A stretch of 64,000 nucleotides of DNA from Candidatus Moraniibacteriota bacterium (GTDB taxonomy: Bacteria > Patescibacteriota > Minisyncoccia > Moranbacterales > UBA9337): assembly GCA_029865125.1 (NCBI GenBank), contig JAOUHN010000001.1, positions 1,360 to 65,359 of the forward strand, in the 5' to 3' direction. The notes below the pieces were generated by a model. That model saw only the letters and a program-made list of their open reading frames with translations, searched no databases and was not told where the DNA came from. Each line of letters opens with the position of its first letter. Position 1 is the first letter of the stretch. A program made the translations under genes and the position numbers. Positions 236 to 42,860 of the stretch are shown piece by piece.

Positions 236-400
236 GTTCATGTTTCATGTTATACGCTTTATGTTATATGTTTCATGCTATATGTTTCATGTTATACGCT
301 TTATGTTATATGTTTCATGTTACGTGTTTCATGTCGTGTGTTTCATGCTTCATATTTCATGCTCCATGCTCCATGTTCCATGCATTATATATTTCCCGAT
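236..400. repeat. Heptanucleotide tandem array (ATGYTHY)n, about 24 units
   Basis: ATGTTTC ATGTTAT ACGCTTT ATGTTAT ATGTTTC ATGCTAT ... ATGCTCC ATGCTCC ATGTTCC. The period is 7, so it cannot be coding. The 222-431 ORF is an artefact of this repeat. Confidence 0.85.
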
Positions 401-9427: not shown

Positions 9428-9512
9428 ACATGTCCCATGCCCTATGTTTCGTGTTCCATGCTATATGTTCTATGCTCCATGTTATGTGCTGCATGCTCCA
9501 TGCTCTACGCTG
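9428..9512. repeat. Heptanucleotide (ATGYYYY)n array, about 12 units
   Basis: ATGTCCC ATGCCCT ATGTTTC GTGTTCC ATGCTAT ATGTTCT ATGCTCC ATGTTAT GTGCTGC ATGCTCC ATGCTCT. Confidence 0.8.
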
Positions 9513-15295: not shown

Positions 15296-15681
15296 CTACT
15301 CGATAAAAATGCTTTCCAGGTGCTTTATTTTTTCACACCTTCGCTCTTCATCTAACCACACTGAAACTGCATCAAATCGATAATCACTTTCTGTCAGTTT
15401 ATTTTTCCTCAAATAAAAATTAGCAATTTTTTCCAGCTTGTGCAATTTCCTTCTGTCAATATTTTCTTCAGGAACAACCACTTCCCCAGGACGAACCATT
15501 CTTGTTTTCACCTCCACAAAAACAATACTATTTCCATCTTTGGCGATCACATCAATTTCTCCCAACCTTCTTCCTTGAGTATTTGAAAAATTAAACTCAA
15601 GAATCCTATAGCCTTTTTTCTTGAGATGTTTGGCCGCCAATTTCTCACCTAATTCTCCCGGACTATTTTCTTTTTTTCTCC
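15296..15681 (-). CDS. yraN: YraN-family (UPF0102) endonuclease
   Basis: GELGEKLAAKHLKKKGYRILEFNFS...GEIDVIAKDGNSIVFVEVKTR. The likely start is the internal Met (MIFWRK) at 15681; the ORF-track ORF extends to 15739. Confidence 0.75.
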
Positions 15682-15789
15682 AAAAAATCATAATTTTGGC
15701 GCATAATATAAAACATGAAACACTTCCTTGCAACTCCAACTACACTTCCTAATTTACTAATCAACTATTTCACTAATTAACTAAAATAA

Positions 15790-15815
15790 AAAAACACCCT
15801 TTCGGGAGTCCACTT
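15790..15815 (-). terminator. Minus-strand rho-independent terminator (CTCCC-GAAA-GGGTG plus T7)
   Basis: Read on the reverse strand: hairpin followed by TTTTTTT. It terminates a leftward transcript just upstream of the yraN promoter region. Confidence 0.5.
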
Positions 15816-16159
15816 TCCTCTTTTTCAAAAAATCTTTTCTTCAATGACCCGGTTCAAATGAGGTATTGAAACCGGGCGCGAGGCCCAATATATTAAAAAT
15901 GTGGCTGCGCCCGGGATTTCACATGTACTAACGTGAAAGCCGGAAACTTTTTAGCCTGGGTGAAGAGGCATCGAAAGTTATGAGCCACACGTACTTTATG
16001 TACATGTCTTTATTTGTCACTTGCCCTAGCTTGCAAATGATATCTTTTACTGTCTTAAGGTTTATTACCTTTTTTAAAGAACTTATTTTTTTGTTTTTCT
16101 TTTTGTTTTTTTTCTTTTTCTTTTTCTTTTTTATTTTTGTTTTTGTTTTTTTAGTTCCC

Positions 16160-16332
16160 TGACTAGGATCAGGGAGGTCTTAGCTAACATGCTAGCCTCT
16201 TTGTCACCGAAGTGACAAAAAGTTCAGCTAACACTATCTGCTAAGACCAGAAAAACAGTAAAAGATCTTTCAACCACAATTAGGGGGTAGTTGTGGCTGA
16301 AAAAACTTGCACCGTTTATGGTGTTTTTTCAA
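16160..16332 (+). ncRNA. Candidate structured sRNA ending in a terminator (nested helices)
   Basis: CCCTGA-ctag-GATCAGGG hairpin; long-range GGTCTTAGC...GCTAAGACC enclosing GTCAC-cgaa-GTGAC; CCACAA-N-GTTGTGG hairpin; terminal CACCGTTTATGGTG plus T6. No protein-coding potential. Class unknown; RNase P, tmRNA and SRP signature motifs were not found. Confidence 0.35.
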
Positions 16333-16583
16333 TTATCCGTGAATTTAATCCACAGGATTTTTATTTAGTTTTCAATGTTCTGCCCTCTCTCAACCTCACA
16401 ATACAATTATAACAAAAAAATGGGTCTTGGTCAACACTGAAATACCTGCAGTCCTTTATTTAAGCCATTTTTGACAACTTATAAAAACTTTGTCATTTTT
16501 CAGAAAACAGCATTTTTTTGTCATTACTTTGCCTTATTTGCGCCTTCATGTCAATTTTTCTCCCCAGCTTATCCACAGAAAAA

Positions 16584-18152
16584 CTATTGATTCATATTCA
16601 TTTCTGCATTCATATTTTCATCCTCATCACTTTGCGTTGTATCAATGTTATCATTTGGCATTATTGTTTCATTCTCCACTTCAATAACAGGACTATCTAA
16701 AATAACAGGACTATCTAACATCCTATCAATAATCGCTCGCATGGAATTTTTGCTTGTTGCAATTACCAAATATCCGTTCATGAATGAATAATCAACAGAC
16801 AAAGCATTGTTCGTATCGATATTAAAATATCTGATATTCATTCCTCTATATTCACTATCAGAAAAGTTAATATTTTCTCCTGCAGAACTGAGCCCGGTAG
16901 CAAAAAACTCAGGAATCATACCAGGAATATCAGACTCTGATGCCATCAAAAGATTTTTTAGATCATTTTTATTTTCCTCTGTAACTTTCATGGAGATTGA
17001 TACTCTATCCACTCCATTGTCTCTAAATAAGAATAAGGAAAAATTATCAGTCAATTTCTCCATGGTTTGATCTGAAAAATTAAATTTTGTGATCGCAAAA
17101 AAATTGCCGAGTTTCATATCCGCATATTTGTTATCTGCCAAAACAAATTCAAATGGACCTGATTCACCAGCAGGAAATTCAGCAAATATTCTTTTTATTT
17201 CATTTCCTATGGTTTCACTCGTAGCAGCTTCAATGTCAACATTCAAATAATTTGGCATAGTAAGAGAATACTTGAATTCTTCTTTGACCACTTCTTCTTC
17301 TACTTCCTCGGTAACAGCTTCTTTTTCAACTGCAATTTCTTCAACTTCTGCACCCTTCATAAAATAGAAATAATATCCACCAAAAGCTGCTCCTCCCACA
17401 ATAATCAAAATTACAACACTCACAAAAACTTTTCTCCAACCAACTCTGGGACCTGGCTTGAATTCTTCTACTGGTTCCTGAGATGGAATGTCAACAACTT
17501 CAGCTCTCATTTCTACAGGTGCAGGAGTCGCCAATATTTCTTCTTTCTGTTCTGGCTTTACCGTTGATTGCAAATCATCACCAAAAGCCCCCACAAATCT
17601 TCCTGGTTCTTCTTTTCCAAATACACTTTTTTCTTCCACTGGAAGTTCTTCAGTAACTGACGGCTCTGGATAGGCTAAGATATCTTTCTCTGGAGAAATT
17701 TTCTCTTCTTCTGCAACTTCAACTGGCTCTAGTTTGGAAATATCTCTTGCTGATCTCATGTCCATAGATGGTGCAGGTTTTGGGCTCCACCCTGCTAATT
17801 CTGGCTCTTTTATTTCAGCTACTTCTTCGATTGGTTCTTCTTCTTTGATTTCTTGAGCAAATGGAGATTCTGCGCCAATAACTTCTTTTGTGCTCTCGAT
17901 TTCTCTTTCCAAAAATGGACTGTCTTGAGCAAGAACACCTTTGCCACCACCCATTTCTTCTGAAGTTCCTAGAGCACTCATTGAAGTTTCCGCGACTTCT
18001 CCTGAAGATATTTTTCCGCCTCCCTTAGTCACTTCCAAATCACTTTTCATGGTAAAAAATTTAACATCACTTGAATTGATTTTTTCATCTCCAGCTCCAA
18101 AAGGAGATTTGGAATCTCCTCGGGATTGTTTTATGTTTGAATTATTATCCAT
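16584..18152 (-). CDS. Hypothetical bitopic membrane protein (acidic Glu/Pro-rich N-terminal half, one TM helix, folded C-terminal domain)
   Basis: 522 aa with a TM helix VFVSVVILIIVGGAAFGGYYFYF. Internal in-frame duplication LDSPVILDSPVI arises from a 15-bp direct repeat. Confidence 0.6.
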   Translation of the reverse strand: MDNNSNIKQSRGDSKSPFGAGDEKINSSDVKFFTMKSDLEVTKGGGKISSGEVAETSMSALGTSEEMGGGKGVLAQDSPFLEREIESTKEVIGAESPFAQEIKEEEPIEEVAEIKEPELAGWSPKPAPSMDMRSARDISKLEPVEVAEEEKISPEKDILAYPEPSVTEELPVEEKSVFGKEEPGRFVGAFGDDLQSTVKPEQKEEILATPAPVEMRAEVVDIPSQEPVEEFKPGPRVGWRKVFVSVVILIIVGGAAFGGYYFYFMKGAEVEEIAVEKEAVTEEVEEEVVKEEFKYSLTMPNYLNVDIEAATSETIGNEIKRIFAEFPAGESGPFEFVLADNKYADMKLGNFFAITKFNFSDQTMEKLTDNFSLFLFRDNGVDRVSISMKVTEENKNDLKNLLMASESDIPGMIPEFFATGLSSAGENINFSDSEYRGMNIRYFNIDTNNALSVDYSFMNGYLVIATSKNSMRAIIDRMLDSPVILDSPVIEVENETIMPNDNIDTTQSDEDENMNAEMNMNQ

Positions 18153-20525: not shown

Positions 20526-20575
20526 GGCATAGAACATAGAGCACGTAACATACAGCACAGAACATGAAACGCGCA
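20526..20575. repeat. Heptanucleotide array, reverse orientation (GRAACAT-type units)
   Basis: AGAACAT AGAGCAC GTAACAT ACAGCAC AGAACAT GAAACGC is the reverse complement of the ATGYTHY family. Confidence 0.75.
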
Positions 20576-21154: not shown

Positions 21155-21190
21155 TTCATGCTATATGTTCTATGTTATATGCTACGTGAC
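21155..21190. repeat. Heptanucleotide array (short)
   Basis: ATGCTAT ATGTTCT ATGTTAT ATGCTAC. Confidence 0.6.
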
Positions 21191-42773: not shown

Positions 42774-42860
42774 ATAACTTTACGGACTTTATGGACTTTA
42801 CGGACTTTATGGACTTTACGGACTTTACGGACTTCCAGGACTTTATGGACCTTACGAACC
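42774..42860. repeat. 9-bp tandem repeat (ACTTTAYGG), about 9 units
   Basis: actttacgg actttatgg actttacgg actttatgg actttacgg actttacgg acttccagg actttatgg accttacga. Confidence 0.9.

What the first reader, a model, noticed from the sequence alone, without database searches (positions are those of the whole stretch)
15740..16583. 840-bp noncoding island with convergent terminators, strong stem-loops and an 80-nt polypyrimidine tract (candidate sRNA locus)
In a compact genome this is an unusually large gap between two minus-strand genes. It contains a minus-strand terminator (15790-15815), a minus-strand-readable structured segment (15840-15990, including the CCGGGCGC...GCGCCCGG stem and the CCGGTTCAAATGAGGTATTGAAACCGG hairpin), and a roughly 85-nt T-rich low-complexity tract (16075-16160). 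There is also a plus-strand structured unit (16160-16332) with nested helices and a terminal hairpin plus T6. I could not match RNase P, tmRNA or SRP signatures, so these may be 6S-like or novel sRNAs.
Basis: seen in the sequence. Interest (0 to 1): 0.6.

Follow-up and report, generated by a model that had tools for sequence, protein, structure and literature searches.

The report
Novel large structured RNA in Moranbacteria
The "empty" 0.9-kb gap holds one gene for a roughly 600-nucleotide folded RNA that makes no protein, is conserved in over 100 relatives of this tiny-genome bacterium, and matches no known RNA family, so it is probably a new kind of cellular RNA of unknown role.

Summary
They belong to one gene, not to two convergent units. 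The 892-bp gap (15692-16583) holds a single minus-strand non-coding RNA gene of about 614 nt (15787-16400). It has a near-consensus extended -10 promoter (16434-16406) and an intrinsic terminator (15811-15787). The same RNA, 398-618 nt long, sits at the same syntenic place (pnp, DUF3352-like membrane protein, RNA, yraN) in 61 species-level genomes, mostly Moranbacteria and other Parcubacteria. It is also in 102 metagenome contigs and in no viral contig. On 59 sequences, 69 base pairs are 90% paired, against 77% when shuffled and about 40% when slid, and 54 pairs show compensatory changes. Forty-three independent metagenome sequences keep the helices. One strand can pair with either of two partners, and both helices covary. 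Rfam 15 at E<=10 and ARAGORN give no RNase P, tmRNA, SRP, 6S, OLE, ROOL or GOLLD match. Function is unknown. I favour an abundant trans-acting RNA that binds or sequesters a protein or the ribosome.

The parts
15787..16400 (-). The RNA gene itself, about 614 nt. The 5' end is estimated from the -10 element and the 3' end from the terminator U-run.
   Evidence: Conservation starts at the promoter and stops at the terminator in 5- and 59-sequence alignments. Fold z = -9.1. Covariation supports the helices.
16406..16434 (-). Sigma-70 promoter: -35 TTGACC (16434-16429), 17-nt spacer, extended -10 TGtTATAAT (16414-16406).
   Evidence: Matches 11 of 12 consensus positions plus TG. The same TTGAC-N17-TGnTATA(A/C)T is present in 61 of 62 loci.
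16316..16400 (-). 5' leader with the conserved UUGAAAA motif and a lineage-specific inserted hairpin (16335-16358).
   Evidence: Alignment A2, columns 1-113. Length is variable between species.
16306..16315 (-). A1 (ACGGUGCAAG), the upstream partner of strand B. This is alternative helix 1.
   Evidence: A1:B is 82.4% paired and 8 of 10 pairs show compensatory change. Mean duplex energy is -15.6 kcal/mol, against -8.9 for cross-species controls.
16267..16302 (-). Hairpin H1 with the invariant C-rich loop (16280-16290). The loop reads CUACCCCCUAA here and UUUCCCCCUAU in the consensus.
   Evidence: 97.7% paired, with CG<->UA covariation at the base. The loop is unpaired in the MFE of 59 of 59 species. 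The motif retrieved 61 genome loci and 102 metagenome loci.
16253..16265 (-). Strand B (UCUUUUACUGUUU), which pairs with either A1 or A2.
16177..16248 (-). Hairpin H2. It is variable in length and is expanded here with a UUCG-capped extension.
   Evidence: 8 of 8 consensus pairs show compensatory change and about 91% are paired.
16156..16175 (-). Hairpin H3 (UCCCUGAUCCUAGUCAGGGA).
   Evidence: Present in the window MFE. Homologous CCGCCUCC...GGAGGACC hairpins occur in most relatives but are absent in the compact clade. Not quantified, because the alignment is poor here.
16085..16152 (-). A-rich single-stranded tract (core AAAACAAAAAYAAAAA ... AAAAYAAAAAUAAAAA), expanded in this genome.
   Evidence: The core is nearly invariant across 59 plus 43 sequences. 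It is unpaired in 47 of 59 MFEs. It is built from the same hexamers that are 5-6-fold enriched upstream of start codons in these genomes.
16059..16082 (-). GUUCUUU (segment C) plus the small GG..CC hairpin.
   Evidence: C can pair with AGAGAAC of A2 (87% of cells), but almost only through one-sided changes. The small hairpin covaries at 3 of 3 pairs.
16043..16055 (-). A2 (AGACAGUAAAAGA), the downstream partner of strand B. This long-range helix closes the domain that holds H2, H3 and the A tract.
   Evidence: B:A2 has 13 pairs, 87% paired, 11 with compensatory change. It is 86% paired in the independent set. It is present in the window MFE.
16017..16040 (-). Variable hairpin H5.
   Evidence: Window MFE. 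A variable hairpin occupies the same place in relatives.
15921..16007 (-). Long arm closed by helix X:Y (15986-16007 with 15921-15937) and capped by the conserved UCACCC loop (15956-15964).
   Evidence: X:Y is 92% paired and 16 of 17 pairs are compensatory. It is better supported than the two local hairpins: 94% against 84% and 82%. The loop is unpaired in 45 of 59 MFEs.
15872..15914 (-). Hairpin H8 (CCGGGCGC...GCGCCCGG), with an AU-rich loop and an invariant GGGC.
   Evidence: The 11-pair main helix is 87% paired with 10 compensatory pairs. It is 94% paired in the independent set.
15848..15876 (-). 3' hairpin CCCGGUUUCAA...UUGAACCGGG. It shares CCCGG with the 3' strand of H8.
   Evidence: Sequence. 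Relatives have CCCGG...CCGGG with a different interior. Not quantified.
15787..15811 (-). Intrinsic terminator (GGACUCCCGAAAGGGUG plus U7).
   Evidence: A GC hairpin plus U-run lies at the aligned position in the relatives.
16569..16577 (+). Perfect DnaA box TTATCCACA, about 170 nt upstream of the transcription start. It may be a regulatory element of the RNA promoter.
   Evidence: Boxes with at most 1 mismatch lie at -195 to -160 in about 40 of 60 loci, often as a tandem pair 11 bp apart. Density is 2.8 per kb against 0.5 per kb in the rest of the loci.
15705..15733 (-). Promoter-like site for yraN (TTGCAA-17-TATATT) between the RNA terminator and the yraN ATG at 15691.
   Evidence: consensus match only. 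It suggests that yraN need not depend on read-through.

Best explanation
The gap encodes one independently transcribed, highly structured non-coding RNA. It is about 614 nt here and 398-618 nt in relatives. It defines a family not present in Rfam and is confined to Moranbacteria and some neighbouring Parcubacteria (Patescibacteria/CPR).

Shown:
- It has its own near-consensus extended -10 promoter and an intrinsic terminator.
- It has a multi-arm fold supported by covariation.
- It has three invariant exposed elements: loop UUUCCCCCUAU on hairpin H1, loop UCACCC on the X:Y arm, and a single-stranded A-rich tract AAAACAAAAAYAAAAA.
- It has a bistable element. Strand B (CUUCUACUGUUC) pairs either with an upstream copy (A1) or a downstream copy (A2) of ACGGUAGAAG. 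Both helices covary with B and have similar energies.

Inferred (about 0.3 for this part):
- The RNA is abundant and acts in trans as a ribonucleoprotein scaffold or decoy.
- Its exposed C-rich loops and A-rich tract bind single-strand RNA-binding domains of the translation-initiation or RNA-decay machinery. Candidates are bS1 or the 30S subunit, which here must recognise A-rich start regions that lack a Shine-Dalgarno sequence, and the KH/S1 module of PNPase, encoded two genes upstream.
- The A1/B/A2 exchange opens or closes the domain that carries the A tract.
For: Gene-like signals:
- The promoter is in 61 of 62 loci.
- A terminator lies at the aligned position.
- No gene is called in the gap in 5 contigs.

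Structure:
- 69 pairs are 90.2% paired, against 76.8% shuffled and 38-43% slid.
- 54 pairs and 563 cells show a change on both sides, and 0 of 500 shuffles reach the observed values.
- Independent metagenome sequences keep the helices: H1 98%, B:A2 86%, X:Y 90%, H8 94%.
- The minus strand folds with z = -9.1, the plus strand with z = -5.1.

Distribution:
- 61 species-level genomes, 102 metagenome contigs and 0 viral contigs carry the motif.
- Synteny is constant.

Bistability:
- A1:B has 8 of 10 pairs with compensatory change, and B:A2 has 11 of 13.
- Mean duplex energies are -15.6 and -18.3 kcal/mol, against -8.9 and -10.8 for cross-species controls.
- A1:B appears in the full-length MFE of 30 of 59 species and B:A2 in 5 of 59, including the window.

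Exposed elements:
- Loop 1 is unpaired in 59 of 59 MFEs, the A tract in 47 of 59 and loop 2 in 45 of 59.

Resemblance to start regions:
- GGAGG occurs upstream of only 18 of 460 genes.
- Positions -11 to -2 are 42-50% A.
- ACAAAA, AACAAA, AAACAA and ATAAAA are 5-6-fold enriched there.
- PMC9297842 reports that the anti-SD motif was detected in only 48% of Parcubacteria 16S rRNAs.

Independence from yraN:
- In L048 an IS element and other genes separate the intact RNA from yraN.
Against: - There is no expression data.
- No partner has been identified.
- The resemblance of the A tract to start regions could simply reflect A-rich intergenic composition.
- Adjacency to pnp may only reflect gene order frozen within one clade.
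- No conserved site complementary to the loops lies nearby, which says nothing about distant targets.
- H1 is invariant on both strands. This could instead mean a tertiary or catalytic role, or recognition at the DNA level.
- The alignment comes from MAFFT, not from a structural aligner. Helices H3 and H5, the inner part of the X:Y arm and the 3' hairpin are not quantified.
Confidence: 0.8

Rival explanations
1. It is a giant cis-acting leader (riboswitch or attenuator) that controls read-through into the downstream yraN-dksA/traR-lspA-comM genes. On this reading the alternative helices act as the switch.
For: - It lies on the same strand, directly upstream of yraN in nearly all loci.
- A terminator sits just before yraN. 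In L003 only about 16 nt separate the U-run from the ATG.
- Mutually exclusive helices are typical of riboswitches.
Against: - At 400-600 nt it is several times the size of known leaders.
- The alternative helices lie 250-450 nt upstream of the terminator and do not involve it.
- In L048 an IS element, convergent genes and a TrmB-like gene lie between the intact RNA and yraN.
- In L025 the dksA/traR match lies about 1.7 kb downstream of the RNA instead of the usual ~0.5 kb, implying inserted DNA.
- Promoter-like sites for yraN exist downstream of the terminator in the window and in the compact clade.
Confidence: 0.07
2. It is a highly divergent form of a housekeeping RNA (RNase P RNA, tmRNA, SRP RNA or 6S RNA) that the standard models miss in CPR bacteria.
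For: - It has a strong promoter, appears once per locus and is universally conserved within the clade.
- The window has a GAGGAAAG string near the 3' end that recalls RNase P CR-I.
- None of these RNAs is found elsewhere in the 64-kb window.
Against: - No hit to any of those Rfam models appears even at E<=10, in the window or in two compact homologues.
- ARAGORN finds no tmRNA.
- The GAGGAAAG string lies in a variable segment and is absent from relatives.
- There is no P4-type pseudoknot motif, no tRNA-like ends or T-loop, no GGAA-capped SRP domain IV, and no 6S-type single hairpin with a central bubble.
- The window covers only about 5-10% of a CPR genome, so absence of those genes from it means little.
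Confidence: 0.04
3. It is a DNA-level element, either a replication origin or a DnaA-box cluster, with the AT-rich tract as an unwinding element. On this reading it is not an RNA.
For: - Conserved DnaA boxes lie about 170-195 nt upstream, often as a tandem pair 11 bp apart.
- A 68-nt tract of almost pure A/T is present.
Against: - GC skew does not change sign here, and the genes on both sides run the same way.
- Helices keep pairing through G-U wobbles, which would be C-A mismatches on the other strand, and through compensatory changes. This is selection at the RNA level.
- The compact clade keeps the RNA but lacks the boxes.
- DnaA boxes are not enriched in the window overall.
Confidence: 0.03
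4. It is two separate convergent small RNAs: a minus-strand one at 15840-15990 and a plus-strand one at 16160-16332. Each has its own terminator, and a spacer lies between them.
For: - A terminator-like hairpin plus T6 lies on the plus strand at 16309-16324.
- Both strands fold better than shuffled sequence.
Against: - The plus-strand hairpin is not conserved.
- No plus-strand promoter is conserved.
- The long-range helix B:A2 joins the two 'units' across the A tract and covaries.
- The minus strand folds much better: z = -7.1 against -3.4 for 16155-16400, and -4.5 against -2.2 for 15780-16080.
Confidence: 0.03
5. It acts as a base-pairing regulator in the manner of RNAIII, RsaE or RoxS. Its C-rich apical loops would pair with G-rich or Shine-Dalgarno regions of a small set of mRNAs.
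For: - Two invariant C-rich loops sit on long hairpins and are always unpaired.
- A minority of genes do carry strong GGAGG or GGGGG leaders.
- There is a weak, sub-threshold Rfam resemblance to RsaE: 20.4 bits against a cut-off of 79.
Against: - Shine-Dalgarno sequences are rare here, 18 of 460 genes.
- No conserved complementary site is found in about 560 kb of related loci.
- The invariance of the H1 stem and the A tract is not explained.
- This rival shares the 'independent RNA gene' part with the main explanation and differs only in mechanism.
Confidence: 0.15

Closest known systems
OLE RNA (ornate, large, extremophilic; Rfam RF01071)
   Same: - It is a highly structured bacterial ncRNA of about 600 nt.
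- It is a stand-alone gene.
- It sits next to a gene for a membrane protein. Here that is a DUF3352-like single-pass protein, which stays adjacent even when the other neighbours change.
   Different: - No sequence or structure match appears at E<=10.
- The taxon differs: Bacillota against Patescibacteria.
- The neighbouring protein is unrelated to OapA, and its cytoplasmic part is acidic.
- No functional link has been shown.
ROOL, GOLLD, raiA and HEARO (other large ncRNAs found by comparative genomics)
   Same: - It is large, has a multi-helix architecture with many covarying pairs, and its biochemical role is unknown.
- Repeated self-complementary segments could in principle support multimerisation.
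   Different: - No Rfam match.
- It is not phage-associated, with 0 viral contigs.
- It occupies a fixed chromosomal position in one clade.
- No nuclease or ORF partner is present, unlike HEARO with IscB.
CrcZ/CrcY and CsrB/RsmZ (protein-sponge RNAs)
   Same: - The size is similar (about 400 nt) and it has a strong promoter of its own.
- It carries conserved single-stranded A-rich motifs that resemble the translation-initiation regions of the organism's mRNAs. That is the logic by which CrcZ titrates Hfq/Crc.
   Different: - The CrcZ model scores 16.4 bits against a cut-off of 95, which is noise.
- There is one long tract rather than six dispersed motifs.
- No Hfq, Crc or CsrA link is known.
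- The rest of the RNA is far more structured.
Staphylococcus RNAIII and RsaE/RoxS
   Same: It is a multi-hairpin RNA of about 500 nt that displays conserved C-rich apical loops.
   Different: - No homology: the RsaE model scores 20.4 bits against a cut-off of 79.
- The host uses few Shine-Dalgarno sequences.
- No targets were found.
6S RNA
   Same: It is an abundant, promoter-driven, conserved ncRNA proposed to work by mimicking a nucleic-acid substrate of a core machine.
   Different: - 6S is a single hairpin of about 180 nt with a central bubble.
- This RNA is 400-620 nt with several arms.
- No Rfam match.
Bacterial Y RNA (Rsr/Y RNA/PNPase complex)
   Same: It is an ncRNA that could tether or modulate PNPase through its KH/S1 domains. 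pnp is two genes upstream in most loci.
   Different: - Y RNAs are about 100 nt with a tRNA-like module and need Rsr.
- No rsr gene was seen here.
- The link to PNPase is inference only.

Membership tests
RNase P RNA (bacterial types A and B) | Match to the Rfam covariance models; the P4 pseudoknot with conserved regions CR-I (GAGGAAAGUCC) and CR-V. | tested here: not met
   No hit at gathering or at E<=10 in the window, L052 or L024. The window's GAGGAAAG lies in a non-conserved segment.
tmRNA | tRNA-like acceptor and T arm, a tag reading frame, and detection by ARAGORN or Rfam. | tested here: not met
   ARAGORN finds only 5 tRNAs in the window. There are no Rfam tmRNA hits.
SRP RNA (4.5S or long form) | Domain IV with a GNAR-capped helix and conserved symmetric and asymmetric loops; Rfam models. 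| tested here: not met
   No hit at E<=10.
6S RNA | A single extended hairpin of about 150-200 nt with a large central bubble; Rfam RF00013. | tested here: not met
   No hit at E<=10. The length is 398-618 nt and the consensus fold has several arms.
OLE, ROOL, GOLLD, HEARO and raiA large ncRNAs | Match to the family covariance model. | tested here: not met
   None is listed at E<=10. No viral copies.
CrcZ-type sponge RNA | Match to RF01675; several A-rich Hfq/Crc-binding motifs; shown binding to Hfq. | tested here: not met
   16.4 bits against a cut-off of 95. An A-rich tract is present. Binding cannot be tested here.
Riboswitch or transcription-attenuation leader | An alternative structure that includes or excludes the terminator, and obligate coupling to the downstream gene. 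| tested here: not met
   The alternative helices A1:B and B:A2 lie 250-450 nt upstream of the terminator. In L048 the RNA is uncoupled from yraN.
Chromosomal replication origin or DnaA-box cluster | A DnaA-box cluster next to an AT-rich unwinding element, a change in GC-skew sign, and diverging gene orientation. | tested here: not met
   Boxes are present upstream. There is no skew switch and the genes run co-directionally. Covariation is at the RNA level.
Independent bacterial ncRNA gene (generic) | Own promoter and terminator, no conserved ORF, a conserved secondary structure with covariation, and a detected transcript. | tested here: inconclusive
   Promoter, terminator and covariation criteria are met. 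No gene is called. Transcript detection cannot be tested with these tools.

The most novel reading that the evidence does not exclude
This RNA is a CPR-specific global regulator that works by mimicry. Its invariant A-rich tract imitates the start regions of this lineage's mRNAs, which lack a Shine-Dalgarno sequence. Its C-rich loops engage KH/S1-type domains. The abundant RNA would then titrate 30S/bS1 or PNPase. A built-in two-state switch (A1:B against B:A2) would turn the decoy on and off. This would be a '6S RNA for translation or RNA decay' in bacteria with minimal genomes.
Probability: 0.15. Interest if true: 0.9.

Novelty: categorically new. Interest (0 to 1): 0.72.

Why it matters
- Large bacterial RNAs with intricate conserved folds are rare. 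When solved, they have turned out to be ribozymes, ribonucleoprotein cores or self-assembling particles.
- CPR/Patescibacteria have genomes of about 1 Mb stripped of many 'essential' functions. Yet this clade keeps 0.4-0.6 kb of non-coding sequence under strong structural selection, driven by a near-perfect promoter.
- The family offers a concrete, testable object. It has defined ends, three invariant exposed elements and a covariation-supported two-state helix.
- It could help study how these uncultivated bacteria regulate translation or RNA turnover. Many Parcubacteria lack the anti-Shine-Dalgarno motif (PMC9297842).
- The family should also be added to RNA family databases so that such gaps are annotated.

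Tried and rejected
- Rfam at gathering score on the whole window and on 4 relatives gave only tRNAs.
- Rfam at E<=10 on the gap and on two compact homologues gave only noise.
- ARAGORN found no tmRNA.
- Replication-origin idea: DnaA boxes are not enriched in the window as a whole and GC skew does not switch. The conserved boxes upstream of the promoter are kept as a side finding.
- Coding potential: only short unconserved ORFs, and no gene called in 5 contigs. The 60-aa plus-strand ORF at 15980-16162 is poly-Phe read through the T tract.
- Local hairpins for the two CAUGUA...UACAUG segments: rejected in favour of the long-range X:Y helix.
- A search for conserved sites complementary to the C-rich loops in about 560 kb of related loci found none.
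- A crude all-against-all covariation scan for extra pseudoknots gave nothing convincing.
- A pairing of the 5' UUAAAA with the 3' U-tail predicted by RNAalifold has no covariation and was dropped.
- Viral contigs: 0 hits.
- Six literature searches and a term search inside the P finder RNase P paper found no description of this RNA.
- I did not build a covariance model or predict the structure of the neighbouring protein. Neither would have changed the verdict.
Full report
**1. The observation**

The window has about 36-38% G+C and is densely coded. Two genes flank the gap:
- a 522-aa gene (16584-18152, minus strand), which has an acidic N-terminal half, one transmembrane helix and no Pfam hit;
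- yraN/UPF0102.

Gene callers placed no gene between them in the source contig or in four relatives. The yraN CDS is 15296-15691, so the gap is 15692-16583 = 892 bp.

- the T-rich run at 16086-16152;
- the GC-rich stem and the CCGGTT...AACCGG hairpin;
- a hairpin plus U7 on the minus strand at 15811-15787;
- a terminator-like hairpin plus T6 on the plus strand at 16309-16324.

**2. Strand and boundaries**

A near-consensus promoter lies on the minus strand at 16434-16406 (TTGACC, 17 nt, TGtTATAAT). The sequence from about 16400 to 15787 folds much better as minus-strand RNA (-189.9 kcal/mol, z = -9.1) than as plus-strand RNA (-159.8 kcal/mol, z = -5.1). The two halves behave the same way.

**3. 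Conservation**

Homologues of the poorly conserved 522-aa protein (26-41% identity) led to four related contigs. All show the same order: pnp, membrane protein, a 690-890-bp gap, yraN, dksA/traR-type zinc finger, lspA, comM.

The gaps align from the promoter to the terminator, with long invariant blocks. The most conserved block, CACANNTNCCCCCTANTTGTGRTTG, gave:
- 61 loci in one-genome-per-species GTDB contigs, mostly named Moranbacteria, Parcubacteria or Patescibacteria;
- 102 metagenome contigs;
- no viral contig.

NCBI places Candidatus Moraniibacteriota in the Parcubacteria group of the Patescibacteria.

In 61 of 62 loci with enough upstream sequence, a TTGAC-N17-TGnTATA(A/C)T promoter precedes the RNA. 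RNA length from the inferred start to the terminator is 398-618 nt. Synteny is nearly constant.

The membrane-protein gene stays adjacent even where other neighbours moved, and in the distant locus L013 it is a recognisable DUF3352 protein. In L048 the intact RNA is separated from yraN by a DDE-transposase gene (an insertion-sequence element), convergent genes and a TrmB-like gene.

**4. Structure**

I aligned 59 full-length sequences (A2). RNAalifold was run on the full alignment and, with RIBOSUM scoring, on its gap-reduced form. My own counts followed. Together they give this fold, 5' to 3':

| Element | Description |
|---|---|
| Leader | Variable, contains UUGAAAA |
| H1 | Hairpin with the invariant loop UUUCCCCCUAU |
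| H2 | Variable hairpin |
| H3 | Hairpin, absent in the compact clade |
| A tract | Single-stranded A-rich tract |
| Small hairpin | Short GG..CC hairpin |
| B:A2 | Long-range helix that closes the domain holding H2, H3 and the A tract |
| H5 | Variable hairpin |
| X:Y arm | Long arm closed by a 15-17-bp helix and capped by the loop UCACCC |
| H8 | GC-rich hairpin (CCGGGCGCUG...CAGCGCCCGG) with an AU-rich loop |
| 3' hairpin | CCCGG...CCGGG |
| Terminator | GC hairpin plus U-run |

Counts on 69 pairs:
- 90.2% of cells are paired, against 76.8% after shuffling and 38-43% with partners slid.
- 54 pairs and 563 cells show changes on both sides.
- The covariation score is 0.404 against 0.180.
- 0 of 500 shuffles reach any of the observed values.

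X:Y is clearly better supported than the two local hairpins its palindromic halves could form: 94% against 84% and 82% paired, and 122 against 22 and 14 compensatory cells.

Positions dominated by G-U fix the strand, for example columns 173/647 (UG:40) and 116/173 (GU:45).

Forty-three further non-redundant RNAs from metagenomes were added to the alignment without changing it. They keep the helices: H1 98%, B:A2 86%, X:Y 90%, H8 94%, H2 91%.

H3, H5, the inner part of the X:Y arm and the 3' hairpin are seen by eye and in single-sequence folds. They were not quantified, because MAFFT aligns those variable parts poorly.

**5. A two-state element**

Strand B (consensus CUUCUACUGUUC; window 16253-16265) is complementary to two copies of ACGGUAGAAG:
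- A1 lies upstream (16306-16315), where pairing extends H1.
- A2 lies downstream (16043-16055), where pairing closes the central domain.

The two helices exclude each other, and both follow B through its changes. A1:B has 8 of 10 pairs with compensatory change and B:A2 has 11 of 13.

Mean duplex energies are -15.6 kcal/mol (A1:B) and -18.3 kcal/mol (B:A2). Partners taken from another species give -8.9 and -10.8.

In full-length minimum-energy folds, A1:B appears in 30 of 59 species and B:A2 in 5, including the window. The two states are therefore close in energy.

This could be a regulated switch, a co-transcriptional folding intermediate, or a strand swap between molecules. I cannot tell which.

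**6. Invariant exposed elements and the host's start regions**

Loop 1, the A-tract core (AAAACAAAAAYAAAAA, then a short U run or an inserted hairpin, then AAAAYAAAAAUAAAAA) and loop 2 are nearly invariant across about 100 sequences. They are predicted unpaired in 59, 47 and 45 of 59 species. The window's tract is an expanded version.

Across 460 predicted genes in these loci:
- GGAGG occurs upstream of only 18.
- Positions -11 to -2 are 42-50% A.
- The hexamers ACAAAA, AACAAA, AAACAA and ATAAAA are 5-6-fold enriched upstream of start codons.

The window shows this directly, for example ...AAAAACAAAATG. The tract is made of the same words. Tsurumaki et al. detected the anti-SD motif in only 48% of Parcubacteria 16S rRNAs (PMC9297842). 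This resemblance is suggestive only, since A-rich words are also typical of intergenic DNA.

**7. What it is not**

- Rfam 15 gives nothing at gathering scores. At E<=10 it gives only noise for the window gap and two compact homologues. RNase P, tmRNA, SRP, 6S, OLE, ROOL, GOLLD, HEARO and raiA are all absent from those lists.
- ARAGORN finds no tmRNA.
- The window's GAGGAAAG, which recalls RNase P CR-I, lies in a non-conserved stretch.
- It is not a replication origin. GC skew stays negative on both sides, the flanking genes are co-directional, and selection acts on RNA pairing.
- It is not phage-borne.
- Six literature searches and a term search inside one RNase P annotation paper found no description of it.

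**8. How it most likely works**

Shown:
- It is an independent RNA gene with a strong promoter.
- It has a conserved multi-arm fold.
- It has three invariant single-stranded elements.
- It has a bistable helix.

Inferred:
- It acts in trans as an abundant ribonucleoprotein RNA.
- C-rich tetranucleotides are classic KH-domain ligands, and A/U-rich single strands are S1-domain ligands (established knowledge of those domains).
- PNPase, which carries KH and S1 domains, is encoded two genes upstream.
- bS1 and the 30S subunit must recognise A-rich leaders that lack a Shine-Dalgarno sequence in this lineage.

I therefore favour a decoy or scaffold for one of these machines, gated by the A1/B/A2 exchange. 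I give that mechanism only about 0.3. Base-pairing through the C-rich loops (RNAIII-like) is the main mechanistic alternative. A catalytic or self-assembling role cannot be excluded.

**9. Verdict**

- The family is new to Rfam and to the literature I could search.
- It is of real interest as a large structured RNA in minimal-genome bacteria.

Noticed in passing
window 16569-16577 (+); loci L003-L069, about -195 to -160 from the RNA start: Conserved DnaA boxes (TTATCCACA, at most 1 mismatch) lie just after the stop codon of the membrane-protein gene. They are often a tandem pair 11 bp apart and occur in about 40 of 60 loci (2.8 per kb against 0.5 per kb background). The compact-RNA clade lacks them. 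They may mark DnaA control of the RNA promoter or a DnaA-box cluster.
   Followed up: partly
window-wide; 460 genes in the window and loci L003-L069: Shine-Dalgarno motifs are rare (GGAGG upstream of 18 of 460 genes). Start codons are preceded by A-rich, G-poor sequence, typically AAAACAAAATG. A few genes keep perfect GGAGG at the proper spacing.
   Followed up: partly
window 240-383 and 9429-9511 (also 20527-20565, 21158-21181): Intergenic arrays with 7-nt periodicity built on CATG (for example TTCATGTTATATGTTTCATGCTATATG...). Each of the two sequenced arrays (240-383 and 9429-9511) lies directly after a strong bidirectional terminator hairpin. Function is unknown. They could be iterons, protein-binding arrays or a genome-specific repeat.
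   Followed up: no
window 16683-16718: A perfect 18-bp tandem duplication lies inside the 3' end of the 522-aa gene and encodes LDSPVI twice.
   Followed up: no
window 42777-42856: A 9-nt unit (ACTTTACGG) is repeated about 9 times at 83% identity. I did not check whether it is coding.
   Followed up: no
L048 2828-6324: A DDE transposase gene (DUF772/DDE_Tnp_1), two small ORFs and a TrmB-like regulator gene are inserted between the RNA and yraN. The RNA is left intact.
   Followed up: yes
loci L014, L015, L031, L033, L035, L039, L040, L050, L053, L054, L057, L067, L069: Genome records titled Bdellovibrionales, Micavibrio or Bathyarchaeia carry this Moranbacteria-type locus, most of them with the same synteny (none was detectable in L031). 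This points to mislabelled or contaminated bins.
   Followed up: no
window 16584-18152 (-); L013 1153-2709 (-): The gene always upstream of the RNA encodes a single-pass membrane protein with a long acidic N-terminal region. Pfam does not recognise it here, but the distant homologue in L013 matches DUF3352. It is the neighbour most constantly linked to the RNA.
   Followed up: partly
L002 (SRR7133727 contig, 10547 nt): This independent assembly of the same sequence ends about 40 nt after the RNA terminator. This may be coincidence or a coverage break.
   Followed up: no
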